From the NCBI GenBank assembly GCA_020440645.1, contig JAGRNR010000009.1:5092-69091 (forward strand): 64,000 nt of DNA. Reading direction: 5' to 3'. The DNA comes from a bacterium. GTDB taxonomy: Bacteria > 4484-113 > JAFGCY01. Position numbers and translations under genes: made by a program. The notes under the pieces are model-generated. The model was not told where the DNA came from. It was given only the letters and a program-made list of their open reading frames with translations, and did not search any database. Shown here in pieces: positions 23,098 to 43,400 of this stretch (position 1 is the first letter of the stretch; each line of letters opens with the position of its first letter).

Positions 23098-23165
23098 GAC
23101 ACAAGTTCGAAAACTGCAGGTTATAGATACTGTTGAGTTGAACCCCCGAAGAGAGGGATTTTTAT

Positions 23166-24071: not shown

Positions 24072-24082
24072 GAGGGCCTGCG

Positions 24083-27395: not shown

Positions 27396-28061
27396 GTGCC
27401 CCTATATTACTTGACAGTGCTGGCGCTCGCCGGGTTCCTGAGTGGATCCCTGCCCTTCGGCTGGCTTGTGGCGCGGCTCGGGGGCATGGACATCCGCAAG
27501 CATGGCAGCGGCAACATCGGCATGACCAATGTCTGGCGCGTGATGGGCTGGAAAGCGGGCCTGACTGTGCTGCTGCTGGACGTGGCCAAGGGCCTGCTGC
27601 CCGTGCTGCTGGCCGGGCGCCTGATGGACACCGTCAACCCACCGGGGCTGACGATCAGTGGCCGCGCCTGGCTGCTGCTGATCACCGGGCTGGCCGCGAT
27701 CCTCGGGCATACATTCACGCCCTGGCTGAAGTTCAGGGGCGGCAAGGGTGTCGCCACCAGCCTCGGTGTGCTGATCGCGCTCTACCAGTTATGGGTGTTG
27801 GCGCCGCTTGGCGTATTCCTGCTGGCGCTGGCAATCACGCGCATGGTGAGTGTCGGCAGCATCCTCGCCGCACTGAGTGTGGGCATCCTTGCGGTGGCCG
27901 TGCCGGCACTCAGGCCCTACATGGCGTTTGGCATCCCAGTGGCTCTGCTCGTGATCTGGACGCACCGCAGCAACATCCGCCGCATCCTCGACGGCACGGA
28001 AAGCCGCGTCGGCAGCGGGAAGAAAAAGCCCGCAGCGGAGTCAACCCAGGCGGATCAGTAG
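27396..28061 (+). CDS. plsY: Glycerol-3-phosphate acyltransferase PlsY (acyl-phosphate dependent)
   Basis: MPLYYLTVLALAGFLSGSLPFGWLVARLGG…DIRKHGSGNIGMTNVWRV…LLLDVAKG…ILGHTFTPWLKFRGGKGVAT. These are the conserved PlsY motifs. 221 aa. Confidence 0.85.
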   Translation: MPLYYLTVLALAGFLSGSLPFGWLVARLGGMDIRKHGSGNIGMTNVWRVMGWKAGLTVLLLDVAKGLLPVLLAGRLMDTVNPPGLTISGRAWLLLITGLAAILGHTFTPWLKFRGGKGVATSLGVLIALYQLWVLAPLGVFLLALAITRMVSVGSILAALSVGILAVAVPALRPYMAFGIPVALLVIWTHRSNIRRILDGTESRVGSGKKKPAAESTQADQ

Positions 28062-29755
28062 ATCCCGGCGGAGTGGATCGAATCCAGCATTGCCGAATAG
28101 CCCGCTGACATATGCATCAGCCAGTTCGGATAGATGCCGAGGAAGATGATCGCAGCGCCGAGTGGCAACAGCACGATGGCCTCACGCAGCGGCACACGGC
28201 CCTTCGCCGACTCCGGTGCATCCCCCGGCAGCGTGCGCTGCAGCAGGCTGATCATGTACACCGCGCTCGTCAGCACGCCGATCACCGCCAGGGCCGAGAG
28301 GATCTGCAAAAGCAGGCTGCCGTCGATGCTGCCAACCAGCACCGTCTGCCAGCCCGGCCCGTTCTCGAACGCGCCCATTAAGCTGTACAGCTCGCCCCAG
28401 AAGCCGGCCAGCGCCGGGAAGCCCATGCCGGCGAAGGCCGCCAGCGAAAGCATGCCCGCCAGGAGCGGGGCCGCGCTGCCCAGCCCAGCGATCTCATGCA
28501 CGTTGCGTGTGCCGTAGCGCCGCTCGATGCTGTCCGCCAGCAGGAACAGCGTGGTGATGATCACGCCGTGGCCCACCATGTGGTAGATCGCGCCGGTCGT
28601 TGCCAGCGGGTTCATTGCGCTGCAGCCGAGGATGATGAAGCCCATGTGGCTGATCGAGCTGTAGGCGATCATGCGCTTGATGTCGGTCTGTACCAGCGTG
28701 ACAGCCGCGCCCCAGACGATGCCGATCACCGCCAGCGTGGCAACCACCGGGCCGATCGCGTAACCCTGGTCCGGCAGCGCCCAGTACAGCACGCGCAGGA
28801 ATGCGTATGTCCCGCTCTTGAGCATCACCGCCGCGAGGATCACCGACATTTCCGCCGGGGCCTGGGTATGGGCCGGCGGCAGCCAGGTGTGCAGCGGGAA
28901 CAGCGGTGCCTTGACGGCGAAGGCCACGAGGAAGCCGAGGAAGATCCACATCCTCAGCCAGGGCACGACATCCGTATAGCCCTCGTTCAGCAGGAAGGTT
29001 GCCAGGTTCGGGATCTGGAAGCTGTAAACGCCGGCGCTGATCACCTTGCAGATGATGAGCGACATCAGCATGAACACCGAGCCGGCCATGGTGTACACGA
29101 AGAAGCGGATCGCGGCGCGCGCCGCCTTCTCGCGGTCCTTGCCCCAGCCGCCGATCAGCACGTACATCGGGATCAGCATCCATTCCCAGAACAGGTAGAG
29201 CAGCACGAAGTCCAGCGCCACGAAGGAGCCGATCAGGCCGACCTGCATGAACAGGGTCAGCGCGAGGAATTCCTTCACCCGCTCCGTGCGGTACCAGCCC
29301 CAGATGATGATCAGTGGCAACAGCGCACAGGTCATCAGCACCAGTGGCAATGACAGGCCGTCGATGCCGACGTCGTAGTGCACGCTGAAGCTGCGGCTCT
29401 CGCCGATCTTGATCGCCATCCATTCGATGTCCTGGCGGTACTGGAAGCCCGGGAACTCCGCCTGGAAGGGCGTGTACTGCCCGAGCGGCTTCAGGTCCTG
29501 CACGTTCTGCGAAGTGTCCGTGTATCCGGCGTAGGGCCGCCAGCTGGTTGCACTTTCGGGCAGCCCGGTCAGCAGCAGCACCGCAAACAGCAGGCTGAGC
29601 AGCGAGAACACCAGGGCCACGATCTTGATTGGCAGGATCTTCTTCTTCGGGATCAGGCAGACCAGCAGGCAGCCGACCAGCGGGGCCAGCATCATCTGGG
29701 TGATGGGGTTGCTGATCCACGAGATGAAGCCTATGAAACTCTGCGTCTGGTCCAA
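28055..29755 (-). CDS. Complex I antiporter-like subunit, NuoM/ND4-like (Mrp-type)
   Basis: 566 aa, about 14 TM. NuoM/NuoN/MrpD-type signatures (…PLHTWLPPAHTQAPAEMSVILAAVMLKSGTYAFLRV…; …WGAAVTLVQTDIKRMIAYSSISHMGFI…). Starts 1 nt after the nuoL-like stop. Convergent 7-nt overlap with plsY. Confidence 0.8.
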   Translation of the reverse strand: MDQTQSFIGFISWISNPITQMMLAPLVGCLLVCLIPKKKILPIKIVALVFSLLSLLFAVLLLTGLPESATSWRPYAGYTDTSQNVQDLKPLGQYTPFQAEFPGFQYRQDIEWMAIKIGESRSFSVHYDVGIDGLSLPLVLMTCALLPLIIIWGWYRTERVKEFLALTLFMQVGLIGSFVALDFVLLYLFWEWMLIPMYVLIGGWGKDREKAARAAIRFFVYTMAGSVFMLMSLIICKVISAGVYSFQIPNLATFLLNEGYTDVVPWLRMWIFLGFLVAFAVKAPLFPLHTWLPPAHTQAPAEMSVILAAVMLKSGTYAFLRVLYWALPDQGYAIGPVVATLAVIGIVWGAAVTLVQTDIKRMIAYSSISHMGFIILGCSAMNPLATTGAIYHMVGHGVIITTLFLLADSIERRYGTRNVHEIAGLGSAAPLLAGMLSLAAFAGMGFPALAGFWGELYSLMGAFENGPGWQTVLVGSIDGSLLLQILSALAVIGVLTSAVYMISLLQRTLPGDAPESAKGRVPLREAIVLLPLGAAIIFLGIYPNWLMHMSAGYSAMLDSIHSAGIY

Positions 29756-31918
29756 CTACTCGTACCTCCCGAGGAAGCTCTGAATGATGCGCCGCAGTGT
29801 CTCGTTGAGCGGGAAGGAGACGACAATGCACATCAGCACGGCACCCAACAGCAGCACGAACATGTAGTTCTGGATCTGCCCGTTCTGCCAGTAGCGGCCG
29901 TGCAGCCGCTTGATGATCCACCAGATCTCGCAGCACCACCAGCGGATGCCGTCGACGAAGTGCAGGTCAAGCCAGGCACTGGCATTGGCCAGCCCACGGC
30001 CGCCGCGCCCGATGCGCGTTGACAGCCAGTCGATCAGGCGGATGTCTGAAATGCCTGCAAGAATTGCGAGGAACTCGCCGAAGCCGCCCACCAGTCCCGT
30101 GAAGAAGGGCTTCAAGTACAGCCCCTCGCGGAAGAATCCGGTCACGCCTGTCAAGAGCGGGGTCGGGCTGGCCAGCCCGCGCTCCGAGGCGGAGACGAAT
30201 CCAAGCACTGCGCCGGCCAGCACCAGCACGACCGAGAGGCCGGCGGCCAGTGGTTCGAAGTTGCCTGCCCATTGCAGGTCGTGCAGCCGGCCCTCGAAAT
30301 AGGCGCGGTAGGATGGCCAGAAGGCGGCGATGCCGATGCTGCCGATGAGCGCCAGCAGGATGGAAATCACAGTCGGTCCGGCCCAGCCATTGCCTGCGGA
30401 CGCTTGCTCCGCCAGGCCATTGGCAGCCTCCTTGCCGGGGGAAGGCATCAGCCCGCTCAGCAGGCGCGCACAGTAGGCTGCGGTAAAGGGAATCGATGCG
30501 ATCAGCAGCAGCGCTCCGGCCTGCCAGTAACCCGGCATGGCGGGCATTGTGCTTGCCAGTGCGTTGCCACCGTAGTCCTGTCCGGCGCGGGACAGCAGCG
30601 CGGAGAGGATCTGGTCCTTGCCGAAGTAGCCCGCCAGCCCGATCACACCGGCCAGGCTCAGGCCGGCCGGCAGCAGGGCCAGCCAGAACAGCTGTCCGCT
30701 GGCGGGGGACTGCCTAAGGTCGTCAAAACTCGGTTCGTCGTCATTATGTGTTGCCTGGGCCTCATGCCAGCGCGCCACCACAATGCCGACCGCAAGGAAC
30801 AGCGCGGCCTTGAACCAGGCATGTGCCAGCAGCTGGAATCGCGCGGCCTCCATCGCCAGCGCCCCGCTGCCCATCACGCACAGCCCAAGCTGGCTGACCG
30901 TGCTCCAGGCCAGCAGCTTCTTCGGCTGCTGCTGGCAACAGGCCACGATCGAGCCCATGAGCATCGTCAGGCCGCCGAGCATCACCGCCCAGGCCAGCGG
31001 GGCCACGTACCAGCCGGGGTTGCCACTGTCCGCCTGCACCGGCACGACAGTTCGCCCGAACAGCAGGTCACTGGCCAACAGCGGCCCGGCCGCCACCAGA
31101 GTTGCACTGTGCAGCAGGGCACTGACCGGGGCCGGGGCCACCATCGCATCCGGCAGCCAGAATGACAGCGGCAGGAGTGCTGCCTTGCCGAGCACGGCCA
31201 GCAGGACTAATAGTCCGGCCACGATCATCCAGTTCACGGCGGACAGCTGGTCCGGTACATGCTGTGCCACCCAGCCGATGCTGACCTGGCTGAGCTGCAC
31301 CATGTGCACACCGAAGCGGCCGAAGCCGAACATGAAGATGAAGATCGCGAACAGCAGCCCGAAGTCCGTGGCGCGCGTCGTCCAGAAGGCCTGGCGCGCT
31401 GCCCGGTTGGCCTCCGGCGTGCCCTTGTGGCGGATCAGCAGGTAGCCGGCGAGGCCCATCATTTCCCAGGCGATGTACAGCAGGATCAAAGTGTCACTGA
31501 CGAGGAACAGCAGCATTGAGCCGCAGAAGAATGTCAGCAGCGCATGGAATTGCGCGGCCTTCGGGTCAGCGCGCCGCTCGCGGATTGCATACAGCAACAC
31601 CGCCACGCCGATCAGGCAGGTTGTCAGGATGAACAGCACCTGCGTGTAGTCCGCGCGCAGGGCCAGCGGGATCGGCGGGAAGGCGCGGATCTCCGTGGTG
31701 TAGCCGCTGATCCAGTTGACCATCCATACCGCGCGGCCGGTCTCGGCATCCAGTCCCGCATTGACGGCGAGCGCCATCCCGGCACTGGCCACAAGCGACA
31801 GCACGCCGAGCAGGGCCGTGACGACGGCCGGCACACGGCGCATGAGCAGGCCCGCCCCCGCCGCCAGCAGCGGCAGAAGCGCGATCAGCGGCAGCAGTCC
31901 CTGCATCTCAGGCACCAC
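29756..31918 (-). CDS. Complex I antiporter-like subunit, NuoL/ND5-like
   Basis: 720 aa. N-terminal NuoL signatures (…LFLVSDTLILLYIAWEMMGLAGYLLIRHKGTPEANRAARQAFWTTRATDFGLLFAIF…), a long polytopic body and a C-terminal region consistent with the NuoL lateral helix plus a final TM. Confidence 0.8.
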   Translation of the reverse strand: MVPEMQGLLPLIALLPLLAAGAGLLMRRVPAVVTALLGVLSLVASAGMALAVNAGLDAETGRAVWMVNWISGYTTEIRAFPPIPLALRADYTQVLFILTTCLIGVAVLLYAIRERRADPKAAQFHALLTFFCGSMLLFLVSDTLILLYIAWEMMGLAGYLLIRHKGTPEANRAARQAFWTTRATDFGLLFAIFIFMFGFGRFGVHMVQLSQVSIGWVAQHVPDQLSAVNWMIVAGLLVLLAVLGKAALLPLSFWLPDAMVAPAPVSALLHSATLVAAGPLLASDLLFGRTVVPVQADSGNPGWYVAPLAWAVMLGGLTMLMGSIVACCQQQPKKLLAWSTVSQLGLCVMGSGALAMEAARFQLLAHAWFKAALFLAVGIVVARWHEAQATHNDDEPSFDDLRQSPASGQLFWLALLPAGLSLAGVIGLAGYFGKDQILSALLSRAGQDYGGNALASTMPAMPGYWQAGALLLIASIPFTAAYCARLLSGLMPSPGKEAANGLAEQASAGNGWAGPTVISILLALIGSIGIAAFWPSYRAYFEGRLHDLQWAGNFEPLAAGLSVVLVLAGAVLGFVSASERGLASPTPLLTGVTGFFREGLYLKPFFTGLVGGFGEFLAILAGISDIRLIDWLSTRIGRGGRGLANASAWLDLHFVDGIRWWCCEIWWIIKRLHGRYWQNGQIQNYMFVLLLGAVLMCIVVSFPLNETLRRIIQSFLGRYE

Positions 31919-31953: not shown

Positions 31954-32439
31954 TCAATCCTTCATCAGGTTGGCATCATCAAGCATGATGCTCTTCTTCA
32001 TGCGGTAGAAGGCGATGATGATCGCCAGCCCGACCGCAGCCTCAGCCGCAGCAACGATGATCACGAATATCGAGAACACCTGGCCCATGTTCGTCATCAC
32101 GGATTCCTCCGCGGTGAACGAGGCCAGGGTGGATTTCGGTCCGTAGTAGAAGTTGAACGCGCTCATGTTGATGTTGACGGCGTTGAGCATCAGCTCCAGC
32201 GCCAGCAGCATCCCGATCGCATTGCGCCGCGCGATCACGCCGTACAGCCCGAGGCAGAAGATGAACGCGCTGAGCACGAAGTACTGGTGGTAGTCCACGT
32301 TGGTGAACCACACCATCGGCGTGTCGCCACTTGAGGCGAACCACTGGCGCGAGGCGAACTCGATCGCCTGGATGATCGGCGCCAGGCCCTCGCTCGCCAG
32401 CGAGCCACCCTCGGACTGTTGCAGCAGCAGCAGTAACAT
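31954..32439 (-). CDS. NuoK/ND4L-like subunit
   Basis: ORF 31954..32652. Homology to NuoK begins at the internal Met at 32316 (MVWFTNVDYHQYFVLSAFIFCLGLYGVIARRN… ~ E. coli [27 protein letters not shown]; …GQVFSIFVIIVAAAEAAVGLAII… ~ [23 protein letters not shown]). An in-frame Met at 32439 whose ATG overlaps the nuoJ-like TGA (ATGA) would add a 41-aa non-hydrophobic N-extension. The start is therefore either 32439 or 32316. Confidence 0.7.
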   Translation of the reverse strand: MLLLLLQQSEGGSLASEGLAPIIQAIEFASRQWFASSGDTPMVWFTNVDYHQYFVLSAFIFCLGLYGVIARRNAIGMLLALELMLNAVNINMSAFNFYYGPKSTLASFTAEESVMTNMGQVFSIFVIIVAAAEAAVGLAIIIAFYRMKKSIMLDDANLMKD

Positions 32440-33485
32440 CAGTCCTTCCTCACCAGGATGATCGCGCCGAGCATCGCCATGAGCAGGAGCACGCTGGCCA
32501 CTTCGAAGGGAAGTGTGTACGTTGCCATCAGCGACCAGCCGATGGCCTGGGTATTGCTTGTCAGTACTGCCGCACTGGGCGGGAACTCGGTGTTCTGCGG
32601 GAACTGCATGAACATCCCGACGAGCGCCATGAAGCCGAACAGCATCGTGCACAAAAGCGCGGCCCAGGGGCTCAGGTCAGTGTTCTGCCTGAGCTCGGTG
32701 CCGATGATGTTCTGGCTGACCATGATGCCGAACAGGAACAGCACCATGATGCCGCCGATGTAGATGATCACCTGCACCATCGCGAGGAACTCAGCGTTGA
32801 GCAGGATGAAGTAGCCGGCCACGCCGAACAGCGAAAGGATCAGCATCAGCGCGGAGTGGAACACGTTGCGCATCGTTACGCAACCGATGCCGCCGCCGAC
32901 CACGCCCGCCGTGAACAGCCAGAAGAAGAAGTTCAGCAGCCTGAGCGCGGGCACGCTGAGTGCCAGCATGCCCCAGAAGAAGGCGATGAAGCCAACGACT
33001 GTGAGGATTGCCAGCAGGCGCCGGTGGTCATGGAAGCGGTGCAGCGAAAGCTGCACGCAGGCGATCGTGCCGCCGACCAGCCCGAGGATCAGCATATTTG
33101 AAAGGTTGACAACCAGCGGCTGGAACAGCAGGGAGCTGATCACGAACACCGCCAGGCCAGCGCTGGCTGCCACCCGCAGCAGTCCGGCCTCCGCCGGCAG
33201 GCGGTTGAACAGCATCAGGTTCAGCAGGTAGAAGCCGGCGAGCATGCTGGCGCCCACCAGGATGCGTGCGTCCAGCTGCAAGGCCGCGGACCAGTCCAGT
33301 TTTCCACCCAGCGCTGCCAGCGGGGCGGCCAGCAGCGCCACAAGCACCGCGATCCCGGCCGTTGCCAGCAGCTGGCGGAAGATGCCGTCCAGCCGGTTGA
33401 CGAGCAGTCCGGCGGCCGCCAGCAACGCGGCCAGCAGGGCCACATTGCGCAGCAGCATAAGGGCGGCGGGCAGGCTGGTTTCCAT
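32439..33485 (-). CDS. NuoJ/ND6-like subunit with a ~165 aa N-terminal polytopic extension
   Basis: The C-terminal ~180 aa align with NuoJ (TMRNVFHSALMLILSLFGVAGYFILLNAEFLAMVQVIIYIGGIMVLFLF… ~ E. coli THTNPVHALLYLIISLLAISGVFFSLGAYFAGALEIIVYAGAIMVLFVF; C-terminal …YTLPFEVASVLLLMAMLGAIILV). Canonical NuoJ is about 170-200 aa; this protein is 348 aa with 4-5 extra N-terminal TM helices. Confidence 0.7.
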   Translation of the reverse strand: METSLPAALMLLRNVALLAALLAAAGLLVNRLDGIFRQLLATAGIAVLVALLAAPLAALGGKLDWSAALQLDARILVGASMLAGFYLLNLMLFNRLPAEAGLLRVAASAGLAVFVISSLLFQPLVVNLSNMLILGLVGGTIACVQLSLHRFHDHRRLLAILTVVGFIAFFWGMLALSVPALRLLNFFFWLFTAGVVGGGIGCVTMRNVFHSALMLILSLFGVAGYFILLNAEFLAMVQVIIYIGGIMVLFLFGIMVSQNIIGTELRQNTDLSPWAALLCTMLFGFMALVGMFMQFPQNTEFPPSAAVLTSNTQAIGWSLMATYTLPFEVASVLLLMAMLGAIILVRKD

Positions 33486-34480
33486 CAGGAACTCACCTCC
33501 CCGCGTGGCCGCCTGAGCGGCAGCACCAGCGCCTCGCGATTGGCAACCGGCATCGCCCAGCGCTCCTCGAACACGACGAGCGGGGTGCCGTCCGCGCGCT
33601 TCAGTTCGCCCAGCGCGGGATCATGGTCATAGCGTCCGAGGTCAACGAACAGCACCGTCGGCTGCCCGGGGGCCTGCGCGATTGCACCGCTGCCATCGGC
33701 GGCGATGATGCGCAGCGCTTCCTCCTCAGTCAGTGAGTCGACATTCAAGAGCGGCACGCCGCGGTAGGCCGCCGGCAGCTTCGGCCGGCTGCGCGGATAG
33801 TCCTCGGTGAAGGGCTCGCTCGAAGCCATCCGGGCGGTCTCGCGGAAGCCGGTCAGCACGGAGGTGCCGTAGCGGTGCACGCGGTTGCTGAAGAACCAGA
33901 ATTGGCTGAAGCCGGTTGCAAGGTAGCTCAGGTTGAGCACGAACACCAGGAACCAGAACAGCGCCCAGAGCATGAAGTAGCCGAGCTGGAACTTGAACAC
34001 GGGGAGGCTGCCGGTCTCGCGCCAGATGGCGAAGCCCTCGCCGCTGAGCAGAAGCGTCAGGTTCGGCGTGTCGGCAATGCCCTTCACGCTCATCTTCGGG
34101 TGGATGCGGTCCAGCGGGTCGAATTCCACGATGAAGAAGAACAGGATGATCACGAACAGCAGCAGACGCCAGAGCGTGAAGTCGCGCACCATCCAGCGGC
34201 TGTACTTCACAAGCGCGCCGGATGCCCACCAGAAGAAGCCGAGAATCGCCGGCAGGGCCAGCAGCAGGCCGCTAGCAGTGAACCACATCAGAGAGTACTG
34301 CTCGGAGGGCTGCTTGGAGGCATAGTCGTCAAACAGCGCGCCGTATTTCGTGTAGACGAACACCAACGTGAACCAGGACACGGCGATGAAGCCATAGAAC
34401 TTGAACCAGTCCATCGCGGTGTAGCCGAACCAGCGCTTCGGCAGCGGATGGTGGATTGTCAGGTCATGCCCGTCAGGCAT
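33485..34480 (-). CDS. Hypothetical polytopic membrane protein encoded inside the nuo-like operon (occupies the NuoI position)
   Basis: ORF 33485..34561. Start placed at MPDGHD… (ATG 34478-34480), which overlaps the TGA of the upstream gene (ATGCCTGA). Several TM helices (WFKFYGFIAVSWFTLVFVY; MWFTASGLLLALPAILGFFWWA; LWRLLLFVIILFFFIVEF; LGYFMLWALFWFLVFVLNLSYLA) plus a ~130 aa soluble C-terminal domain. No Cys-rich ferredoxin motifs (not NuoI). Its TGA overlaps the nuoJ-like ATG (33483-33487). Confidence 0.5.
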   Translation of the reverse strand: MPDGHDLTIHHPLPKRWFGYTAMDWFKFYGFIAVSWFTLVFVYTKYGALFDDYASKQPSEQYSLMWFTASGLLLALPAILGFFWWASGALVKYSRWMVRDFTLWRLLLFVIILFFFIVEFDPLDRIHPKMSVKGIADTPNLTLLLSGEGFAIWRETGSLPVFKFQLGYFMLWALFWFLVFVLNLSYLATGFSQFWFFSNRVHRYGTSVLTGFRETARMASSEPFTEDYPRSRPKLPAAYRGVPLLNVDSLTEEEALRIIAADGSGAIAQAPGQPTVLFVDLGRYDHDPALGELKRADGTPLVVFEERWAMPVANREALVLPLRRPRGEVSS

Positions 34481-34943
34481 GCTGCACCTCCTCCACCGTT
34501 TCCGGCTCGTTGGCAGCACTGCCGCCCGCTCCTGCTGCGGCGATGTTGCGCAGCTGGGCATGGTGCCCGGGCGCCGTCACCACGAACCAGTAGAGGAAGC
34601 CGGGCAGCAACAGCAGCACCGGCCGCAGTGTGAACTGCAGTTCGTACTGCAGCCACAGCGAATACAGGCAGCCGCAGGCCGCGAAGCTCCACAGCAGGGA
34701 AGCGATGCCGGGCCGCCGCCTGAACCAGGGGTTGATCCAGGCCGCATTGCGCGCCGGCGTCAGCGGCAGCACCGCCAGCAGCAGGCCGATTGCCAGCAGG
34801 GCCAGCGGGCCGAACCACTGCGTTGTCAGCACGGGTGCCACTCCAAGCACGATGCGCAGGTACAGGCCCCAGGCCCCGGCGGCCACGAGCAGCAGCTCTC
34901 CGAGGAGATGCAGCAGGTTCTGGCTGGTTGACAGCATCCTCAT
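34473..34943 (-). CDS. Hypothetical small membrane protein (4 TM) encoded inside the nuo-like operon
   Basis: ORF 34473..35042. Start placed at the internal Met MRMLSTSQNLLHLLGELLLVAAGAWGLYL… whose ATG (34941-34943) overlaps the TGA of the nuoH-like gene (34940-34942). About 156 aa. No family recognised. Confidence 0.5.
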   Translation of the reverse strand: MRMLSTSQNLLHLLGELLLVAAGAWGLYLRIVLGVAPVLTTQWFGPLALLAIGLLLAVLPLTPARNAAWINPWFRRRPGIASLLWSFAACGCLYSLWLQYELQFTLRPVLLLLPGFLYWFVVTAPGHHAQLRNIAAAGAGGSAANEPETVEEVQHA

Positions 34944-36715
34944 CCGGTCCAGCTCACCTCCCGGCGGGGCTGCGGATGTCGGCGCTGCACGAACAGGATG
35001 CGCCAGGCCATCAGGAGGATGAACAGGCCGAAGAACAGGCACAGCACGTTGTAGCCCCAGAAGAAGGCCTTCTCGGGGACTGTCATCACCGCCAGTGCTT
35101 CAGCTGTTGTCAGCGTCTGGTACTGGGTGACGCGCTGCAGGGCGGTCACGTCGACATCGGAGACGGCCAGCTGGTTCGCGCTGAACCAGGGATGGCGGTT
35201 GACGACGCCGAGCGCGGTGGCCGCCATCACGACCACGCTGGCCGGCAGCAGGAACTTCCAGGAGAAGAACATGATCTGGTCCACGCGGATGCGCGGCATC
35301 GTGGAGCGCGCCCATATGAAGAAGAAGCACACGGCGTAGGTCTTCAGCAGGAACCAGAACAGGCTCGTCAGCCACAATCCGTCGGGGCCGAGGAACATCG
35401 GGCCCTTCCAGCCGCCGAAGAAGCAGACGGTCATGATCGCGCTGACGATGAACACGTTGGAGTACTCGGCGACATAGAACAGCGCGAAGCGCATCCCGCT
35501 GTACTCCACCAGGTAGCCGCCCAAGAGCTCGTTCTGCGCTTCCGGCAGGTCAAAGGGCGGGCGGTTGGTCTCGGCAAGGCTGACAACGAGGTAGATGATG
35601 AAGGCCGGGAACAGCGGCAGGATGCCCCAGGTCATCGTCTGGCGCTGCACGATCTCCGTCAGGTTCAGCGAACCGGCAAAGATGGCAACGCACAGCAGGC
35701 TCATCAGCATCGGGATTTCGTAGGTCAGCAGCATCGCGGCCTCGCGCATCGCGCCGACCAGTGCATATTTGTTGTTGGAGGCGTAGCCGGACATGATCAC
35801 GGCCACGAGGAACATCGCAAAGTCGGCGATGATCAGGAGCAGGCCGACATTCAGGTCCTGGATCATGTAGTAGATGATCTGCCCGTCGACAGCCGCCACG
35901 CCGAACGGGATCACCACCCAGCTCAGGAGCGCCGGCAGGTAGACGAGGATCGGCGCGATCAGGTACAGCAGCTTGTCAGCGCTGAGCGGAACGGTGTCTT
36001 CCTTGAAGAAGATCTTGATCGTGTCGTAGAAGCCCTGGCGCCAGTAGTAGCGCAGCATGTAGCTCATGTAGAGCACGAAGGCGACCACGGTGCACAGCAC
36101 GGTGAGCTGCGGCAAAAACGGGATGTGCGCCTTCGGGATGAAGCCCAGCAGGAGAGCGACGAGCATGCCACCGCAGGACGCGAGGGATGGCCAGGCCAGC
36201 AGTGACAGCAGCGTTGCCAGGAAGCGCCAGACGGAGGTCTGCGCGGCCTGCATCCGGCCGAGCGCTGGCAGGATCATCAAGCGGTTGATCAGCCCCATCA
36301 TGCCCACGGCGAAGAACAGGATGATCCAGCCGCCGAACTGTTGCCAGCCGGCGGTGCCGCCGGTCCAGTAGTTGATGCCGTACAGCAGCGCGGGCAGGCC
36401 GATCAGCACGCCGATCTGCAGGAAGATCCGCCGGAAGCGCTGCGGGGTGACCTCGCCGTACTCCTGCGGGCCGCGGCGGCCCTGCATGCGCGCCATCAGG
36501 CGGCGTTCCCAGACCTGCAGGCCGATGGTGATCATCAGCTCCAGGAGGAAGATCAGCAGGAGCGCCGTCACCAACATGATGCCGTTGGCAACCTCCGGGC
36601 TGAAGCGCAGGCCGGGCAGCGGCTCGGTGTTGAGCCAGGCGCGCATCGCCTCCCAGACGGTGCGGGCCTCGTCCATGTCGTAGCGCTGCTGCAGGATTGC
36701 CAGCATCGGGAGCAT
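34940..36715 (-). CDS. NuoH/ND1-like subunit with a ~150 aa polytopic insertion and a ~80 aa C-terminal extension
   Basis: ORF 34940..36793. Start placed at MLPMLAILQQ… whose ATG overlaps the nuoD-like TGA at 36715. NuoH motifs are present (…VWERRLMARMQGRRGP…; …DTIKIFFKEDTVP…; …ASNNKYALVGAMREAAMLLTYEI…; …RPPFDLPEAQNELLGGYLVEYSGMRFALFYVAEY…; …RIRVDQIMFFSWKFLLP…). About 150 residues with about 4 TM lie between the RRGP and IKIFFKED motifs, where E. coli NuoH has about 15 residues. Confidence 0.75.
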   Translation of the reverse strand: MLPMLAILQQRYDMDEARTVWEAMRAWLNTEPLPGLRFSPEVANGIMLVTALLLIFLLELMITIGLQVWERRLMARMQGRRGPQEYGEVTPQRFRRIFLQIGVLIGLPALLYGINYWTGGTAGWQQFGGWIILFFAVGMMGLINRLMILPALGRMQAAQTSVWRFLATLLSLLAWPSLASCGGMLVALLLGFIPKAHIPFLPQLTVLCTVVAFVLYMSYMLRYYWRQGFYDTIKIFFKEDTVPLSADKLLYLIAPILVYLPALLSWVVIPFGVAAVDGQIIYYMIQDLNVGLLLIIADFAMFLVAVIMSGYASNNKYALVGAMREAAMLLTYEIPMLMSLLCVAIFAGSLNLTEIVQRQTMTWGILPLFPAFIIYLVVSLAETNRPPFDLPEAQNELLGGYLVEYSGMRFALFYVAEYSNVFIVSAIMTVCFFGGWKGPMFLGPDGLWLTSLFWFLLKTYAVCFFFIWARSTMPRIRVDQIMFFSWKFLLPASVVVMAATALGVVNRHPWFSANQLAVSDVDVTALQRVTQYQTLTTAEALAVMTVPEKAFFWGYNVLCLFFGLFILLMAWRILFVQRRHPQPRREVSWTG

Positions 36716-37869
36716 CACTTGTCGACCTCCCCGATCATGATGTCGAGGCTGCCGTAGATCACGAACAGGTCCGCCAGCAGGTAGCCGCGGCACAGCTCGT
36801 CCAGCAGGAACAGGTGGTACAGGCTCGGCGCACGCAGGTGCATGCGGCTCGGGCGGTTGCTGCCGTCGCTGACGAGTGTCAGGCCGAGCTCGCCGCGCGG
36901 GCTCTCGACCGCCGTGTAGACCTCGCCGCGTGAGACCTGCATCGCAGCGAAGTCTGGGCTGACATCCGCCGCCCGCAGCTCGCCGTTGTCAATGTAAGCC
37001 AGGCAGTGCTCAATGATGCGCAGGCTCTCGCGCATCTCGACGAAGCGCACGCGGTAGCGGTCCAGCACATCGCCATACTCGCCGGTCGGCACATGCAGCT
37101 CCAGCTCGCCGTACATCGCATAGGGCTGGTCGCGGCGCAGGTCATGCGCGATCCCGCTGCCGCGCAGCACGGGCCCGGTGGCACCGTGCTCGAAGGCGAA
37201 CTCGGGCTCGAGCGTGCCGATCAGCTCGCTGCGGTTGACCCAGATCGCGTTGTCAGAGAAGAAGTCCTCGTATTCATCCAGCCGGCCCTGGAACCACAGG
37301 CAGAATGCCCGCACATGGCCGCTGAAGTCCTCCGGCGGGGCAGTGCGCACGCCGCCGGGCACGATCCAGCCGTGGTGGTGGCGGTGCCCGCTGAGCATCT
37401 CCAGCAGGTCGAGCAGCATCTCGCGCTCGCGCAGCGAGATGAAGATCGGGGTGTAGGCGCCGGCCTCCAGGCCGAGGTTGCCAAACCAGAACAGGTGGTT
37501 GCCGATCCGGCTCAGCTCCAGCACAAGGGTGCGCAGCCACTGCGCACGGGCCGGAACCGTGATCCCCTCGATGCGCTCGATGGCGTCCGCCACCAGCCAG
37601 TCCGCATTGCTGCCGGCCAGCCACTCGCAGCGGGACAACAGCCCCGCCGCCTGGGCGTAGTTGCGCTGGGTCACCAGCTGCTCCACGCCGCGGTGCATGA
37701 AGCCGACCTCCGGCGTGATGCGCTCGATCAGCTCGCCGTCCGCCTGTACCCGCAGTTCCAGCGGGCTCGGCAGGCTCGGATGCTGCGGGCCGACGGAGTA
37801 GACCAGCTTCTCGGTCAGCAGCGGGTCGCGGCGGATCTCGACACGGCGATCAGAGCTGCGCGTCATCAA
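36715..37869 (-). CDS. NuoD (49 kDa)-like subunit lacking quinone-site His/Tyr and any NiFe-binding cysteines
   Basis: GPQHPSLPSPLELRV… (canonical GPQHP.AHGV), …GFMHRGVEQL…, …RIGNHLFWFGN…, and C-terminal …YGSLDIMIGEVDK (complex-I-type ending, no CxxC). 384 aa. Overlaps the nuoC stop by ~20 nt. Confidence 0.85.
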   Translation of the reverse strand: MMTRSSDRRVEIRRDPLLTEKLVYSVGPQHPSLPSPLELRVQADGELIERITPEVGFMHRGVEQLVTQRNYAQAAGLLSRCEWLAGSNADWLVADAIERIEGITVPARAQWLRTLVLELSRIGNHLFWFGNLGLEAGAYTPIFISLREREMLLDLLEMLSGHRHHHGWIVPGGVRTAPPEDFSGHVRAFCLWFQGRLDEYEDFFSDNAIWVNRSELIGTLEPEFAFEHGATGPVLRGSGIAHDLRRDQPYAMYGELELHVPTGEYGDVLDRYRVRFVEMRESLRIIEHCLAYIDNGELRAADVSPDFAAMQVSRGEVYTAVESPRGELGLTLVSDGSNRPSRMHLRAPSLYHLFLLDELCRGYLLADLFVIYGSLDIMIGEVDK

Positions 37870-38434
37870 GCACCTCCCGCATCGCCGCGTCCGCGCGCTG
37901 TTTCAGCACGTTTTCAGCGTAGTTCTCATGTGAGGCAGCCCTGAACTCCCGCCTGAGCGGGAAGCCCTGCAGCTGCGGGTCGAGGATCAGGCCAATGAGG
38001 TTAGGGTTGCCGGCGAAGGGGATGCCGAAGAACTCGAAGATCTCGCGCTCCATCAGCTCCGTGGCCCGCCAGATCAGGCTCAGGCTGGGGTGCACGCTCT
38101 GCCCGGCATAGGCCGGCGCGGCCTCGCTGTCCTCCCCGCCCGGATCCGTTGCCGGGGGATTGCCCTCCAGCAGGGTGAATTTCCATTTCAGTGTGAGGCT
38201 GACGTCATGCCGCCTGCCGTGCCTGAGCGTCAGGTAGAGGTGGAAGTCCGGCCCGCCGAGGTGGTTGGCGGTCATGTTCAGCGCACGGATGAAGCCGATG
38301 TTCTTCAGCTGGCGGCAGACCAGCGGCAGCTGGCCGCTGTCCGTCAGGATCGCCCAGCCGCGGGCGGGGTCCAGCAGCAGCACATCACCGCAGTCCTCAC
38401 GGATCTGACCGGCAAGCTCATCAGGGAGCACCAA
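37850..38434 (-). CDS. NuoC (30 kDa)-like subunit
   Basis: …ELMEREIFEFFGIPFAGNPNLIGLILDPQLQGFPLRREF… matches the NuoC signature (E.E..E.FGI.F.GHP.L.R.L…G.PLRKDF). 194 aa. First gene after an AT-rich intergenic region. Confidence 0.8.
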   Translation of the reverse strand: MVLPDELAGQIREDCGDVLLLDPARGWAILTDSGQLPLVCRQLKNIGFIRALNMTANHLGGPDFHLYLTLRHGRRHDVSLTLKWKFTLLEGNPPATDPGGEDSEAAPAYAGQSVHPSLSLIWRATELMEREIFEFFGIPFAGNPNLIGLILDPQLQGFPLRREFRAASHENYAENVLKQRADAAMREVLDDAQL

Positions 38435-38656
38435 GTCCTCCCCATCCTGGCTGGATTACGGCAATCGGCATACAGGTATAAACGATCAAAAGCCCCACAG
38501 CGTTACCTTATACATACAAAATGCAAAGGCTTTTGTAATTCTAGCCGATGGGGCAGCGCTGATCACCGCCTGCAGGCAATTGGTTGAAGGGCGTGTGGGT
38601 CTGCCAGCCCAATTGTTAACAGCGGGAAAATCAAAGTAAAGTCCCGATTCAATTAG
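38435..38656. promoter_or_regulatory. AT-rich divergent intergenic region (promoters for the nuoC-led operon and the sensor-kinase unit)
   Basis: Low-GC stretch (…gtataaacgatcaaaagcc…ttatacatacaaaatgcaaaggcttttgtaattctag…gggaaaatcaaagtaaagtcccgattcaattagttgattcattatcttgcgag…) between divergent gene starts. Confidence 0.45.
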
Positions 38657-39025
38657 TTGATTCATTATCTTGCGAGCCTGGATAATTTCTATAATTCAAA
38701 TCGTCAGACCCAGTCTGTACCGGTTGAATTCAAGATTCCAGGTCAAGGCATGCCACAGCAGCATGAATTAATTACTGCAATCCTCGGACTTGGCGTGTTG
38801 TTGCTGATGATCGTGCAACGCCGCCAGCTGCGGCTCATCCCTGACTACCGCTGGCTGTTCCTCTCCTACTGCCTGATCCTGCTGGCCTGGCTGCTGACCA
38901 TTGCGGAAGATTACTGGCTGCCGGTCTACATGAACCTGCTGGAGCATATCTGTTACCTGGCCAGCGCAGCGCTGGTCGCCTGGTGGACACAGAAGTTCCT
39001 CAGAAGGGAAGCGCCACAGCAATGA
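38657..39025 (+). CDS. Small membrane protein (2-3 TM), translationally coupled to the downstream sensor kinase
   Basis: 122 aa. TM segments (LITAILGLGVLLLMIV; WLFLSYCLILLAWLLTIA; ICYLASAALVAWW). Its TGA (39023-39025) overlaps the ATG (39022-39024) of the next gene (caATGAgc). Confidence 0.5.
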   Translation: MIHYLASLDNFYNSNRQTQSVPVEFKIPGQGMPQQHELITAILGLGVLLLMIVQRRQLRLIPDYRWLFLSYCLILLAWLLTIAEDYWLPVYMNLLEHICYLASAALVAWWTQKFLRREAPQQ

Positions 39026-40836: not shown

Positions 40837-40884
40837 CGGGCGGGCGCGTCAGTGCTTTGTGATATACATGGGGAGGAGGCAGGC

Positions 40885-41250
40885 ATGGCGAAGAAGAAGT
40901 TCGAGGATGTGGACCCGCAGGTGCTGGCGGCCTACATGAAGATGATCGGGGGCGTTGAAGGGGTCGAGGCCAAGGGGGCCGCCGCGCCGTACACCTCCCT
41001 GAATGGCAATATGTACTCCAGTATCTCGAAGTTCAACGAGATCGGCCTGCGGCTGGCGAAGGATGAGCGCGAGGCCTTCCTCGAGAAGTACGACACCCGG
41101 CTCTACCACTCCATCCCCGGATATGTGCAGCGGGAGTATGTCACCGTGCCGCCTGCACTGTTTGGCAACACACGCACTCTGCGCAGCTGGTTCCGGAAGT
41201 CCTACGACTACGTCTCATCACTGCCGGCGAAGCCCACGAAGAAGAAGTAG
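40885..41250 (+). CDS. Small soluble protein, possibly TfoX N-terminal-domain-like
   Basis: ORF 40852..41250. Likely start MAKKKFEDV…. Pattern …MIGGVEGV…LNGNMYSSIS…IGLRL…EREAFLEKY…REYVTVPPALFGNTRTLRSWFRKSYDYVSSL is loosely reminiscent of TfoX_N. Low confidence in the family. Confidence 0.4.
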   Translation: MAKKKFEDVDPQVLAAYMKMIGGVEGVEAKGAAAPYTSLNGNMYSSISKFNEIGLRLAKDEREAFLEKYDTRLYHSIPGYVQREYVTVPPALFGNTRTLRSWFRKSYDYVSSLPAKPTKKK

Positions 41251-42539: not shown

Positions 42540-42558
42540 GGTTCATGGTAATGCGATC

Positions 42559-43011
42559 CTACCGCCACGCAAACCGCTCATCCAGCGCACCCGAGAGGAT
42601 GCGCTCCCGGAGCGCGATGATGCCGTCGATCAGCTGCTCGGGCCGCGGCGGGTCGCCCGGCACATAGATGTCCACTGGTACGATGCGGTCCACTCCCCCG
42701 TCCACCGCATAGCTGCCGTCGAAGGGCGCGCCGCTGATCGCCCCCGCGCCAAACGCCATCACGAAGGCCGGGTCGGCCATCGAGGCATGCAGCCGGCGGA
42801 TCACCGGGGCCATCTTGTTGTTGACGACGCCGGCCACGATCAAAAGGTCCACCTGGCGCGGGCTGGGGCGCATCACCTCAGAGCCGAAGCGCGCGATGTC
42901 ATAGCGCGGCGAGATCGCGCTGAACAGTTCCAGCGTGGCGTAGTCCAGTCCGAGCATCAGCGGCCACAGGGAATGGGCACTGGCCTCGCGGATGAGGTCC
43001 TTCAGACCCAT
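42559..43011 (-). CDS. NuoB (PSST/20 kDa)-like subunit in which all four cysteine ligands of Fe-S cluster N2 are replaced
   Basis: …HSLWPLMLGLDYATLELFSA… (canonical …WP..FGL[A/S]CC..EMM…); …VDLLIVAGVVNNKMAPVIRRL…; …VMAFGAGAISGAPFDGSY… (canonical MG.CA.[S/N]GG…); …IVPVDIYVPGDPPRPEQL… (canonical PGCPP). Overall NuoB fold signatures are intact (ARFG.E..R.SPRQ.D; KMAP; PVD.Y.PG.PPRPE). 150 aa. Overlaps nuoA by 10 nt. Confidence 0.8.
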   Translation of the reverse strand: MGLKDLIREASAHSLWPLMLGLDYATLELFSAISPRYDIARFGSEVMRPSPRQVDLLIVAGVVNNKMAPVIRRLHASMADPAFVMAFGAGAISGAPFDGSYAVDGGVDRIVPVDIYVPGDPPRPEQLIDGIIALRERILSGALDERFAWR

Positions 43012-43400
43012 TCCAGCGCTCCCTTGCGGTAGGCATAGGCCCAGCCGACGAGCAGGATGCCGAGGAACACGAACATCTCGCCCAGTGAGGCGGCCCCGAT
43101 CGGCGTGAAGGTGATGTCGTCATTGCCGAACACCAGCAGCCGGAAAGCGGTGGCCCAGGGGAAGATGAACATGATGTCCACGTCGAACATGAGGAACACG
43201 ATCGCGAGGATGTAGAAGCGGATGTTGAAGCGCACCAGCGCATCGCCGGTGGCCTGCGCGCCGGATTCATAGCTCAGGCGCTTGAGGAAGTTCGGCCGCC
43301 GCGGACGCCACAGGTTCAGGAAAGCGAATGCCAGCCCGATCAGCACCGCCCCGCCCAGCAGGAAGAGTGCCACCCAGTTGTACTGTCCAACGGTGTTCAT
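43002..43400 (-). CDS. NuoA/ND3-like subunit
   Basis: …LSYESGAQATGDALVRFNIRFYILAIVFLMFDVDIMFIFPWAT…YRKGALEWV matches NuoA (YECG…F.[IV]RFY…A..F..FDVE..F..PWA; C-terminal KGALEW). 132 aa, 3 TM. Confidence 0.8.
   Translation of the reverse strand: MNTVGQYNWVALFLLGGAVLIGLAFAFLNLWRPRRPNFLKRLSYESGAQATGDALVRFNIRFYILAIVFLMFDVDIMFIFPWATAFRLLVFGNDDITFTPIGAASLGEMFVFLGILLVGWAYAYRKGALEWV

What the first reader, a model, noticed from the sequence alone, without database searches (positions are those of the whole stretch)
32439..33485. NuoJ-like subunit with a ~165-aa N-terminal multi-TM extension
The C-terminal ~180 aa align with E. coli NuoJ including the …Y(A/I)G(A/G)IMVLF(V/L)F… and …LPFE(L/V)AS(M/V)LLL(A/M)… motifs. 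The ORF encodes an additional 4-5 TM helices at the N-terminus (approx. 32975..33485). Combined with the NuoH insertion (of similar size), the membrane domain near the Q-module junction appears substantially enlarged relative to complex I.
Basis: seen in the sequence. Interest (0 to 1): 0.5.

Follow-up and report, generated by a model that had tools for sequence, protein, structure and literature searches.

The report
NuoJ with six extra membrane helices
A complex-I membrane subunit (NuoJ) really does carry six extra membrane-spanning helices at its front end, and it sits in an uncultured-bacterial complex-I look-alike that has lost every iron-sulfur and quinone-binding residue while keeping its proton-pumping residues.

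Summary
ORF 32439..33485(-) encodes a 348-aa NuoJ. Every NuoJ model and every solved NuoJ/ND6/NdhG matches it only from residue about 184.

The start is sound: GGAGGTGA sits 7-8 nt upstream, the ATG overlaps the upstream stop, no internal start has an RBS, and GC3 is 0.84-0.88.

The extension has two layers. A proximal hairpin (aa 122-183) occurs in the whole family of about 80 clusters, mostly 227 aa (omega 0.23). A distal four-helix part (aa 1-121) occurs in five 348-aa clusters only (omega 0.70).

The operon is nuoA-B-C-D-H-Y-X-J-K-L-M:
- NuoB has lost all four N2 cysteines.
- NuoD has lost the quinone His and Tyr.
- X is a membrane-anchored NuoI with no cysteine.
- NuoN is absent.
- NuoH/K/L/M keep their proton-path residues, and all genes are under purifying selection.

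Sister operons that keep their Fe-S ligands have a normal 167-171-aa NuoJ.

Best reading: a peripheral structural helix accretion on a redox-dead complex-I derivative. Its function was not tested. I found no description of it in the literature.

The parts
33123..33485 (-). NuoJ distal N-terminal extension, aa 1-121: four predicted TM helices (two hairpins). Specific to the 348-aa clade.
   Evidence: KD peaks and AF2 helices. Present only in P0001-P0005. 55% identity and dN/dS 0.70 against L001, with no indels. GC3 0.88. SD plus TGATG coupling at codon 1.
32937..33122 (-). NuoJ proximal N-terminal extension, aa 122-183: one TM hairpin with a basic loop (HRFHDHRR). Present in the whole family.
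   Evidence: Aligned in all 227-348-aa members. Invariant G135, F169, R182. 84% identity and dN/dS 0.23 against L001. Absent from the sister NuoJ of L082/L083/L087.
32439..32936 (-). Canonical five-TM NuoJ core, aa 184-348 plus stop.
   Evidence: Pfam PF00499 at 130.7 bits. PDB NuoJ/NdhG/ND6 matches. 96% identity and dN/dS 0.09 against L001. 55% identity to the 171-aa NuoJ of L083.
33485..34480 (-). X = NuoI*: an N-terminal membrane domain, then the NuoI N-terminal arm, then a ferredoxin-like fold with no cysteine.
34473..34943 (-). Y: a 156-aa hydrophobic, apparently multi-TM protein of unknown family between nuoH and X.
   Evidence: ORF and gene calls. No Pfam or NCBIfam hit. Absent from the sister operons. 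dN/dS 0.49.
34940..36715 (-). NuoH-like (591 aa as called), with a roughly 138-aa 4-TM insertion in the TM1-TM2 loop plus N- and C-terminal extensions.
   Evidence: Pfam and NCBIfam NuoH. The PDB alignment splits at ORF aa 114/253. The insertion is absent in L082/L083/L087.
36715..37869 (-). NuoD* lacking the quinone-ligand His and Tyr, with a new His-rich loop GHRHHHGW.
   Evidence: NCBIfam NuoD at 386 bits, above the 360 cut-off. PDB alignment. Family and sister alignments. dN/dS 0.16.
37850..38434 (-). NuoC-like.
   Evidence: Pfam Complex1_30kDa.
42559..43011 (-). NuoB* with all four cluster-N2 cysteines replaced (D, Y, G, D). The protein has no cysteine at all.
   Evidence: Alignment to T. 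thermophilus Nqo6. The replacements are conserved in L081 and L003. The cysteines are retained in L082/L083.
43002..43400 (-). NuoA-like.
   Evidence: NCBIfam NuoA hits.
31954..32439 (-). NuoK-like, 161 aa, with a roughly 50-aa N-terminal extension. Both conserved Glu are kept.
   Evidence: NCBIfam match from aa 47. Alignment shows ELMLNA and AAAEAA.
29756..31918 (-). NuoL-like antiporter subunit, with lateral-helix and TM16 region.
   Evidence: Pfam. Alignment to NdhF1 keeps the Glu, Lys, His, Lys and Lys-Asp positions and the C-terminal YxQNG motif.
28055..29755 (-). NuoM-like antiporter subunit, the last gene of the operon. No NuoN follows.
   Evidence: Pfam. Alignment to NuoM keeps the Glu, Lys, Lys and Glu positions. 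The next gene is plsY on the other strand.

Best explanation
The ORF is a real 348-aa NuoJ orthologue. Three extra TM hairpins (six helices, aa 1-183) precede the canonical five-helix core.

Shown:
- Helices are added in pairs in every length class of the family (2, 4, 4, 6). This would keep the NuoJ core in its normal orientation.
- The proximal hairpin (aa 122-183) is a conserved, family-defining addition.
- The two distal hairpins (aa 1-121) are a recent, weakly constrained addition, specific to the clade that holds this window.
- The operon is an 11-gene Nuo-type operon, A-B*-C-D*-H-Y-I*-J-K-L-M. Its Q-module has lost the ligands of N2 and of both NuoI clusters, and the quinone His/Tyr. 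The charged residues of the NuoH/K/L/M proton paths are intact, and every gene is under purifying selection.

Inferred:
- The extension is a lipid-facing structural buttress or docking surface at the NuoH/A/J/K heel of the membrane arm.
- It probably packs with the other lineage-specific membrane additions: the NuoH TM1-2 loop insertion, subunit Y, and the NuoI* membrane anchor.
- It is probably not a new ion path or catalytic element.
- The complex as a whole most likely works as a redox-independent ion-translocating machine, either Mrp-like antiport or pmf-coupled conformational work.
For: Gene and start:
- ORF, SD, TGATG coupling, no internal RBS, coding GC3.

Boundary of the NuoJ core at about aa 184:
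- Pfam, NCBIfam, 17 PDB chains, GTDB NuoJ genes.

Six helices:
-.

Layered conservation:
- Identity and omega are 55%/0.70 (aa 1-121), 84%/0.23 (aa 122-183) and 96%/0.09 (core).
- The family alignment has no conserved intramembrane charge in the extension; the invariant residues are G135, F169 and R182.

Length classes:
- They add 2, 4, 4 and 6 TM.
- The 281-, 298-318- and 348-aa classes are each monophyletic and nested among 227-aa forms in an NJ tree.
- Their extra helices show no consistent similarity to one another.

Context:
- The same A-B-C-D-H-Y-X-J-K-L-M order is contiguous in L081 and L003.
- N2 cysteine loss.
- NuoD His/Tyr loss.
- X = NuoI without cysteines.
- Proton-path residues kept.
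- Omega 0.16-0.49 for all nine genes compared.
- Sister operons L082/L083 keep all Fe-S and quinone ligands, and have a 167-171-aa NuoJ, no Y and no NuoH insertion.
Against: - No structure of the assembly exists. Where the extension sits relative to NuoH, Y, NuoI* or NuoL is inferred, not shown.
- The AF2 model is a monomer, and its NuoJ core has low confidence (pLDDT 50-65).
- Omega 0.70 for aa 1-121 is close to neutral. Translation of that part rests on start-site, frame, length and composition arguments, not on peptides.
- L087 has also lost its NuoB cysteines and NuoD ligands, yet has a 172-aa NuoJ and no Y. So the extension is not a necessary companion of cofactor loss.
- A canonical NuoB/NuoI encoded elsewhere in the genome cannot be excluded with a 64-kb window.
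- The function of the whole complex is unknown.
Confidence: 0.6

Rival explanations
1. Annotation artefact. The real NuoJ starts at an internal codon near residue 122 or 173, and the upstream reading frame is an untranslated GC-rich spacer.
For: - aa 1-121 evolve almost neutrally (omega 0.70).
- Long spurious ORFs are common in 63% GC DNA.
- Most family members are only 227 aa.
Against: - The only SD is at codon 1, and its ATG overlaps the stop of X. No internal ATG or GTG has an RBS.
- GC3 of 0.88 and GC2 of 0.45 in this frame match the neighbouring genes.
- Five orthologous clusters keep exactly 348 aa. There is no indel or stop against L001 at dS 0.64.
- Loop charges and hydrophobic periodicity are conserved.
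- A 363-nt spacer would be unique in an operon of otherwise overlapping genes.
Confidence: 0.04
2. The extension compensates for the missing NuoN. Its helices fill the NuoN-sized gap, or anchor the NuoL lateral helix and TM16 next to NuoJ/K.
For: - The operon has only two antiporter-like subunits.
- NuoL keeps a lateral-helix/TM16 region.
- The extra helices in NuoJ, Y, NuoI* and NuoH together number roughly as many as NuoN's 14.
Against: - Sister operons L082/L083 and L087 also lack NuoN, yet have a canonical-length NuoJ (167-172 aa) and no Y.
- Helix number varies (2, 4, 6) within the family while the L and M lengths stay similar.
Confidence: 0.1
3. The extension, at least its conserved proximal hairpin, is a functional part of a new membrane module. 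Together with the NuoH loop insertion, Y and the NuoI* anchor, it would sit at the former quinone entry, for example as a substrate, lipid or ion conduit coupled to the antiporter subunits.
For: - The proximal hairpin, the NuoH TM1-2 loop insertion and Y are all present throughout this family and all absent from the sister operons.
- The proximal hairpin is well conserved (omega 0.23; invariant G135, F169, R182).
- The NuoH insertion lies in the loop that lines the quinone entry in complex I (established knowledge).
Against: - There are no conserved intramembrane acidic or basic residues in the extension.
- The distal helices are variable and weakly constrained.
- There is no detectable homology to any transporter fold.
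Confidence: 0.22
4. The operon is a decaying relic of complex I, and the extension is meaningless read-through into degenerating sequence.
For: All redox ligands are lost.
Against: - Omega is 0.16-0.49 for all genes, and NuoD* is the most conserved.
- The replacement residues are themselves conserved across members about 65-70% identical.
- About 80 NuoJ clusters and 43 X clusters have intact ORFs with coupled starts.
- The proton-path residues are intact.
Confidence: 0.03

Closest known systems
Canonical NuoJ / ND6 / NdhG (Pfam PF00499) of respiratory and photosynthetic complex I
   Same: - aa 184-348 align over the full five-TM core, including the TM3 YxGGxMVLFLF motif and the C-terminal LPFExAS motif.
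- The gene lies between the nuoI-like and nuoK genes.
   Different: - 183 extra N-terminal residues (six TM) have no counterpart in any solved chain. The chains start within 2-31 residues of the point where the match begins.
- It scores below every NCBIfam NuoJ equivalog cut-off, at best 111 against 154.
Uncharacterised sister operons found here (L082, L083/L084): nuoA-B-C-D-H-I-J-K-L-M with a membrane-anchored, Fe-S-bearing NuoI
   Same: - Same gene order.
- Two antiporter-like subunits only.
- Same NuoI N-terminal membrane domain, NuoK N-extension and NuoH terminal extensions.
- NuoJ core 54-57% identical.
- The L083 locus shares flanking NHL and FliL genes with the window.
   Different: - The sister operons keep the N2 cysteines, the NuoD His/Tyr and 2x[4Fe-4S] in NuoI.
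- Their NuoJ is 167-171 aa with no extension.
- They have no Y and no NuoH loop insertion.
11-subunit complex I without an N-module (Nuo11 / NDH-1 type; Moparthi & Hagerhall 2011, PMC3144371)
   Same: - Eleven genes.
- No NuoE/F/G in the operon.
- NuoA and NuoJ are present, which separates it from membrane-bound hydrogenases.
   Different: - NuoN is replaced in the count by the unrelated subunit Y.
- All Q-module cofactor ligands are lost.
- NuoI is membrane-anchored.
- Extra helices are present in NuoH, J and K.
Ehr complexes (energy-converting hydrogenase-related; Marreiros et al. 2013, as summarised in PMC6349859 and PMC10284858)
   Same: Complex-I/hydrogenase relatives that have lost catalytic metal ligands and whose function is unknown.
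   Different: - Ehr complexes branch with group 4 [NiFe] hydrogenases; membrane-bound hydrogenases in general do not appear to have NuoA or NuoJ.
- Here NuoD passes the NuoD equivalog cut-off, and NuoA and NuoJ are present.
Mrp-type cation/proton antiporter
   Same: A non-redox assembly of NuoL/M/K-like subunits. It is the most plausible functional analogy for a cofactor-free membrane arm (inference from established knowledge).
   Different: Mrp has no NuoH, A, B, C, D or I homologues. All of these are present here and under purifying selection.

Membership tests
NuoJ / ND6 (PF00499 Oxidored_q3) | Pfam domain above the gathering score, covering the whole model | tested here: met
   130.7 bits against 33.2; profile positions 2-146 of 146, at aa 199-344.
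NuoJ / ND6 (PF00499 Oxidored_q3) | Five-TM core with the conserved TM3 and C-terminal motifs, alignable to solved NuoJ chains | tested here: met
   phmmer hits to 17 solved chains, best E 5.6e-19, over aa 184-347. KD peaks and AF2 helices.
NuoJ / ND6 (PF00499 Oxidored_q3) | NCBIfam equivalog score (a named NuoJ orthologue) | tested here: not met
   Best score is 111.4 bits against a cut-off of 154. All 13 models fall below their cut-offs.
NuoJ / ND6 (PF00499 Oxidored_q3) | Gene position between nuoI and nuoK in a nuo operon | tested here: met
   X (NuoI-derived) lies upstream and NuoK downstream, both with overlapping start and stop codons.
Respiratory complex I (proton-pumping NADH/donor:quinone oxidoreductase) | NuoB with four Cys ligating cluster N2 | tested here: not met
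   CC to DY, C to G, C to D against Nqo6. No cysteine in the protein.
Respiratory complex I (proton-pumping NADH/donor:quinone oxidoreductase) | NuoI with two CxxCxxCxxxCP motifs (N6a/N6b) | tested here: not met
   X is NuoI-derived but has no cysteine.
Respiratory complex I (proton-pumping NADH/donor:quinone oxidoreductase) | NuoD quinone-headgroup ligands (His of the beta1-beta2 loop, Tyr of the DY motif) | tested here: not met
   GPQHPSLPSPLEL in place of GPQHPSTHGVLRL. CEWLAG in place of DYLS.
Respiratory complex I (proton-pumping NADH/donor:quinone oxidoreductase) | Three antiporter-like subunits NuoL, M and N | tested here: not met
   Only L-like and M-like subunits are present. The operon ends at plsY.
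Respiratory complex I (proton-pumping NADH/donor:quinone oxidoreductase) | Membrane core NuoA, H, J, K with conserved E-channel and antiporter charged residues | tested here: met
Respiratory complex I (proton-pumping NADH/donor:quinone oxidoreductase) | Electron-input module (NuoEFG or equivalent) in the genome | not testable with these tools
   None in the 64-kb window. The rest of the genome was not available.
Ehr / group-4 [NiFe]-hydrogenase-related complexes | Large subunit groups with group 4 hydrogenases; NuoA and NuoJ absent | tested here: not met
   NuoD equivalog NF004739 scores 386 against a cut-off of 360, while hydrogenase models reach only E 2.6e-4. NuoA and NuoJ are present.
Mrp antiporter | MrpA-G composition with no NuoH/B/C/D/I homologues | tested here: not met
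   NuoH, B*, C, D* and I* are all present.

The most novel reading that the evidence does not exclude
The window encodes a complete Nuo-type complex-I descendant that has given up redox chemistry altogether: no N2, no NuoI clusters, no quinone ligands. It still keeps a conserved Q-module shell and intact proton-path residues.

In this reading, the NuoJ extension, the NuoH loop insertion, subunit Y and the membrane-anchored NuoI* form a new membrane module at the former quinone entry. The machine would then use, or make, an ion gradient for a non-redox task such as antiport, transport or a vectorial reaction.

One speculative site for such a reaction is the new His/Asp-rich position where N2 used to be: NuoD GHRHHHGW together with the NuoB Asp residues.
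Probability: 0.4. Interest if true: 0.8.

Novelty: new variant of a known kind. Interest (0 to 1): 0.62.

Why it matters
How quinone chemistry drives the distant proton pumps of complex I is still debated. This is a naturally occurring, widely sampled family: about 80 NuoJ clusters at 90% identity in metagenomes. It keeps the complex-I architecture and its proton-path residues under purifying selection, after deleting every redox ligand.

Close relatives keep their Fe-S ligands and have an ordinary NuoJ. That gives a before-and-after pair for asking three questions:
- What are the Q-module shell and the E-channel for when there is no electron transfer?
- What are the added helices on NuoJ, NuoH, Y and NuoI* for?
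- Can the complex-I scaffold be repurposed?

The family also warns that automatic annotation ("NADH-quinone oxidoreductase subunit J") over-calls respiration in this lineage (UBP7 and relatives).

Tried and rejected
1. Searching the 184-aa extension alone in the 5.8-billion-protein index returned nothing, not even the protein itself. This is probably a composition or word-filter effect and is uninformative.

3. Origin by duplication:
- The proximal hairpin resembles NuoJ TM1-2 (GxVGGxIxCV), with z of 3-7 in the 348-aa clade. In the rest of the family z is mostly around 0 (range about -1 to 2.4).
- hhalign of family profiles is negative (E 0.6). The result is inconclusive and probably not a duplication.

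4. There is no significant similarity of the extension to Y, the NuoI* membrane domain, the NuoH insertion, the NuoK extension or NuoA (z at most 3.2).

5. The extra hairpins of the 281- and 301/318-aa classes are not demonstrably homologous to aa 1-121. The apparent tandem repeat in P0064 is also not significant.

The UBP7 search returned only unrelated ubiquitin-protease and NMDA-receptor papers.

7. The idea that cofactor loss and the NuoJ extension are strictly linked was rejected. L087 has lost its ligands but has a 172-aa NuoJ.
Full report
**Observation**

ORF 32439..33485 on the minus strand (ATG, 348 aa) is present as described. Independent assemblies of the same sequence carry the same gene calls:
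- NuoH 591 aa
- Y 156 aa
- X 331 aa
- NuoJ 348 aa
- NuoK 161 aa
- NuoL 719 aa

Several comparisons place the start of the NuoJ-homologous part at about residue 184:
- Pfam Oxidored_q3 covers only aa 199-344 (130.7 bits).
- NCBIfam NuoJ models start at aa 183-188, all below their equivalog cut-offs.
- All 17 solved NuoJ/ND6/NdhG chains align from query aa 184-198, at chain residues 2-31.
- Canonical NuoJ genes from GTDB genomes (Acidimicrobiia and others, about 40% identity) align from about aa 185.

Hydropathy gives six peaks before the five core helices. An AF2 model built on 23 family sequences gives six confident helices: 7-27, 30-59, 65-92, 97-121, 124-148 and 155-176, with pLDDT 80-90. 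The isolated NuoJ core is modelled less confidently.

**Is the extension translated?**

- Codon 1 is preceded by GGGGAGGTGA at 7-8 nt. Its ATG overlaps the stop of the upstream gene (TGATG).
- None of the 17 in-frame ATG/GTG codons up to residue 208 has a Shine-Dalgarno.
- GC3 is 0.88 for aa 1-121 and 0.84 for aa 122-183. Neighbouring genes have 0.87-0.92.
- Against the UBP7 MAG locus L001 the two genes align without a single indel over 348 codons.

| Region | aa identity | dN/dS |
|---|---|---|
| aa 1-121 | 55% | 0.70 |
| aa 122-183 | 84% | 0.23 |
| core (aa 184-348) | 96% | 0.09 |

The distal part is clearly under weak constraint.

**Distribution**

The protein belongs to a family of about 80 clusters at 90% identity. 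Nearly all come from metagenomes and are annotated, where at all, as NuoJ of "bacterium". Length classes:

| Length | Clusters |
|---|---|
| 226-230 aa | 62 |
| 281 aa | 2 |
| 298-318 aa | 4 |
| 348 aa | 5 |

The 227-aa forms align to query aa 122-348. Their start abuts the stop of the upstream gene, so they are truly shorter.

Hydropathy counts 2, 4, 4 and 6 helices ahead of NuoJ TM1 in the four classes. The count is always even. This would keep the core orientation. N-terminus outside and C-terminus inside is my recollection of E. coli NuoJ topology work. It fits the basic loops at 149-156 and 206 and the C-terminal RKD.

An NJ tree of the core was rooted with the sister NuoJs. Each longer class is monophyletic and nested among 227-aa forms. 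Their extra helices show no consistent mutual similarity. N-terminal helix accretion therefore seems to have happened repeatedly on top of a shared two-helix addition.

**Context**

The gene sits in a Nuo-type operon. In L081 and L003 the operon is contiguous as nuoA-B-C-D-H-Y-X-J-K-L-M. In the window and in L001 it is split between B and C by about 4 kb that holds a hybrid histidine kinase.

*NuoB.* All four cluster-N2 cysteines are replaced (CC to DY, C to G, C to D), and the protein has no cysteine. The replacements are conserved in L081 and L003.

*NuoD.* It passes the NuoD equivalog cut-off, but two ligands are gone:
- It lacks the beta1-beta2-loop His (GPQHPSLPSP in place of GPQHPSTHG).
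- It lacks the quinone Tyr (CEWLAG in place of DYLS).
- It has gained a conserved His-rich loop, GHR(H/W)HHGW.

*X.* It has no Pfam or NCBIfam hit and no cysteine. Three independent lines identify it as a NuoI derivative:
- Profile-profile alignment to 56 NuoI sequences taken from canonical operons: E 1e-5, covering the G-x-x-T...PxT..YP...RG arm.
- An exhaustive HMMER search found only 27 clusters. Several have the same N-terminal membrane domain fused to a normal 2x CxxCxxCxxxCP NuoI.

*Y.* It is a 156-aa hydrophobic, apparently multi-TM protein with no detectable relatives.

*NuoH.* It has a roughly 138-aa, 4-TM insertion in its TM1-TM2 loop, plus terminal extensions.

*NuoK.* It has a roughly 50-aa N-terminal extension.

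*Antiporter-like subunits.* There are only two, and no NuoN.

The charged residues of the proton paths are retained:
- NuoH: YE, AETNR, FDL, E..E, EYSG.
- NuoK: both Glu.
- NuoM: Glu, Lys, Lys, Glu.
- NuoL: Glu, Lys, His, Lys, Lys-Asp, plus the lateral-helix/TM16 region.

All nine genes compared with L001 are under purifying selection (omega 0.16-0.49), and NuoD* is the most constrained. This is a maintained machine, not a relic.

**Relatives that bracket the change**

*Operons L082 and L083/L084* are nuoA-B-C-D-H-I-J-K-L-M.
- They share with the window family the membrane-anchored NuoI, the NuoK extension, the NuoH terminal extensions and the absence of NuoN.
- They keep the NuoB cysteines, the NuoD His/Tyr and the eight NuoI cysteines.
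- Their NuoJ is 167-171 aa, 55% identical to the window core and starting at the point where the window's core begins. They have no Y and no NuoH loop insertion.
- L083 shares flanking NHL and FliL genes with the window. The NHL proteins are 30% identical over 532 aa. The loci are therefore probably positional orthologues in distant relatives.

*A third lineage, L087/L088.*
- It has also lost the NuoB cysteines (to S, E, G, S), the NuoD ligands and half of the NuoI cysteines.
- It has a 172-aa NuoJ and no Y.
- The three lineages are roughly equidistant, at 31-60% identity per subunit between lineages.

So the NuoJ extension is a trait of the window's family. It is not an obligatory consequence of either NuoN loss or cofactor loss.

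**Interpretation**

The following are shown:
- a real six-helix, two-layer N-terminal extension;
- its family and clade distribution;
- the loss of all redox ligands;
- the retention of proton-path residues;
- purifying selection.

The role of the extension is inferred. The points that bear on it are these:
- The extension has no conserved intramembrane charge.
- Helix number varies between clades.
- The distal helices evolve almost neutrally.
- No fold or sequence relative exists.

On this basis I read the extension as peripheral, lipid-facing scaffolding at the NuoH/A/J/K heel. The conserved proximal hairpin is the part most likely to make specific contacts with the other family-specific membrane additions.

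A more functional role remains possible: part of a new conduit at the remodelled quinone entry. I give that about 0.2.

Two other readings are disfavoured:
- Compensation for NuoN is disfavoured by the sister operons.
- Misannotation and operon decay are disfavoured by the start-site, frame and selection data.

What the whole complex does is unknown. I commit to a redox-independent ion-translocating role, either Mrp-like antiport or pmf-coupled work, as the most likely. The new His/Asp-rich site at the former N2 position is an untested lead.

**Comparison with known systems, and novelty**

- The protein is a member of the NuoJ/ND6 Pfam family, but not of any curated NuoJ equivalog.
- The assembly fails four defining features of respiratory complex I: N2, the NuoI clusters, the quinone ligands and three antiporter-like subunits.
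- It is not an Ehr or hydrogenase-type complex, because NuoA and NuoJ are present and the large subunit is NuoD-type.
- It is not Mrp.
- I found no description of it in the searchable literature. That library is incomplete.

I rate it a new variant of a known kind. The NuoJ extension by itself is of moderate interest. The cofactor-free complex that carries it is the more surprising result.

Noticed in passing
window 42559-43011 (-), also L081 4604-5122 and L003 3571-4074: The NuoB homologue has no cysteine at all. The four cluster-N2 ligands are replaced by D, Y, G/S and D, and these replacements are conserved across the family.
   Followed up: yes
window 36715-37869 (-): The NuoD homologue lacks the quinone-ligand His and Tyr. 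It has a conserved His-rich loop, SGHR(H/W)HHGW, where canonical NuoD has SGAR(L/M)... next to the N2 site. Together with the NuoB Asp residues, this could be a new metal or proton site.
   Followed up: partly
window 33485-34480 (-): The 'hypothetical protein' X is a NuoI derivative with an N-terminal membrane domain and no cysteine. Only 27 clusters at 50% identity match it among 1.84 billion representative proteins. Some distant relatives keep both 4Fe-4S motifs on the same membrane anchor.
   Followed up: yes
window 34473-34943 (-): Y is a 156-aa hydrophobic, apparently multi-TM ORF between nuoH and X. It has no family match, is conserved in position in L001, L003 and L081, and is absent from the Fe-S-bearing sister operons.
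   Followed up: partly
window 34940-36715 (-), ORF aa 115-252: NuoH carries a roughly 138-aa, four-TM insertion in its TM1-TM2 loop, the region that lines the quinone entry in complex I. It also has N- and C-terminal extensions.
   Followed up: partly
window 38435-42558: The nuo-like operon is split between nuoB and nuoC by about 4 kb. The stretch holds a PAS-HisKA-HATPase-REC hybrid kinase (38983-40836, +), a TfoX_N-like ORF (40852-41250, +) and a 265-aa ORF with no family match (41742-42539, -). L001 upstream of nuoC has a 616-aa ORF of the size and orientation of the kinase and no called nuoA/B, which suggests the same split (not confirmed). In L081 and L003 the operon is contiguous.
   Followed up: partly
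L087 6045-15753 and L088: A third related operon type, A-B-C-D-H-I'-J-K-L-M. NuoB has no cysteine (S, E, G, S at the ligand positions). NuoD His is replaced by W and Tyr by I. NuoI keeps only 4 cysteines. NuoJ is a normal 172 aa. Cofactor loss may have happened more than once in this wider clade.
   Followed up: partly
window 23166-25750 (+) and L083 18603-20931: An NHL-repeat protein (30% identity over 532 aa) and a FliL gene flank the nuo-like operon, in the same relative orientation, both in the window and in the Fe-S-bearing sister locus L083. This suggests a conserved chromosomal neighbourhood.
   Followed up: partly
window 31954-32439 (-): NuoK is 161 aa, with a roughly 50-aa N-terminal extension that the sister operons share (150-151 aa there). 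Its start overlaps the NuoJ stop (TGATG).
   Followed up: partly
window 21025-24071 (+); 43454-52914 (-); 53077-56775 (+): A MotA/MotB/FliL cluster lies downstream of the operon. Upstream lie four large secreted-type PKD-domain proteins (some with PPC domains) and a 1232-aa subtilase.
   Followed up: no
P0078 (434 aa, JGI): One database protein joins an X-like N-terminal part to a NuoJ core. It is most likely a frameshift or assembly fusion of the adjacent X and nuoJ genes, not a natural fusion.
   Followed up: no
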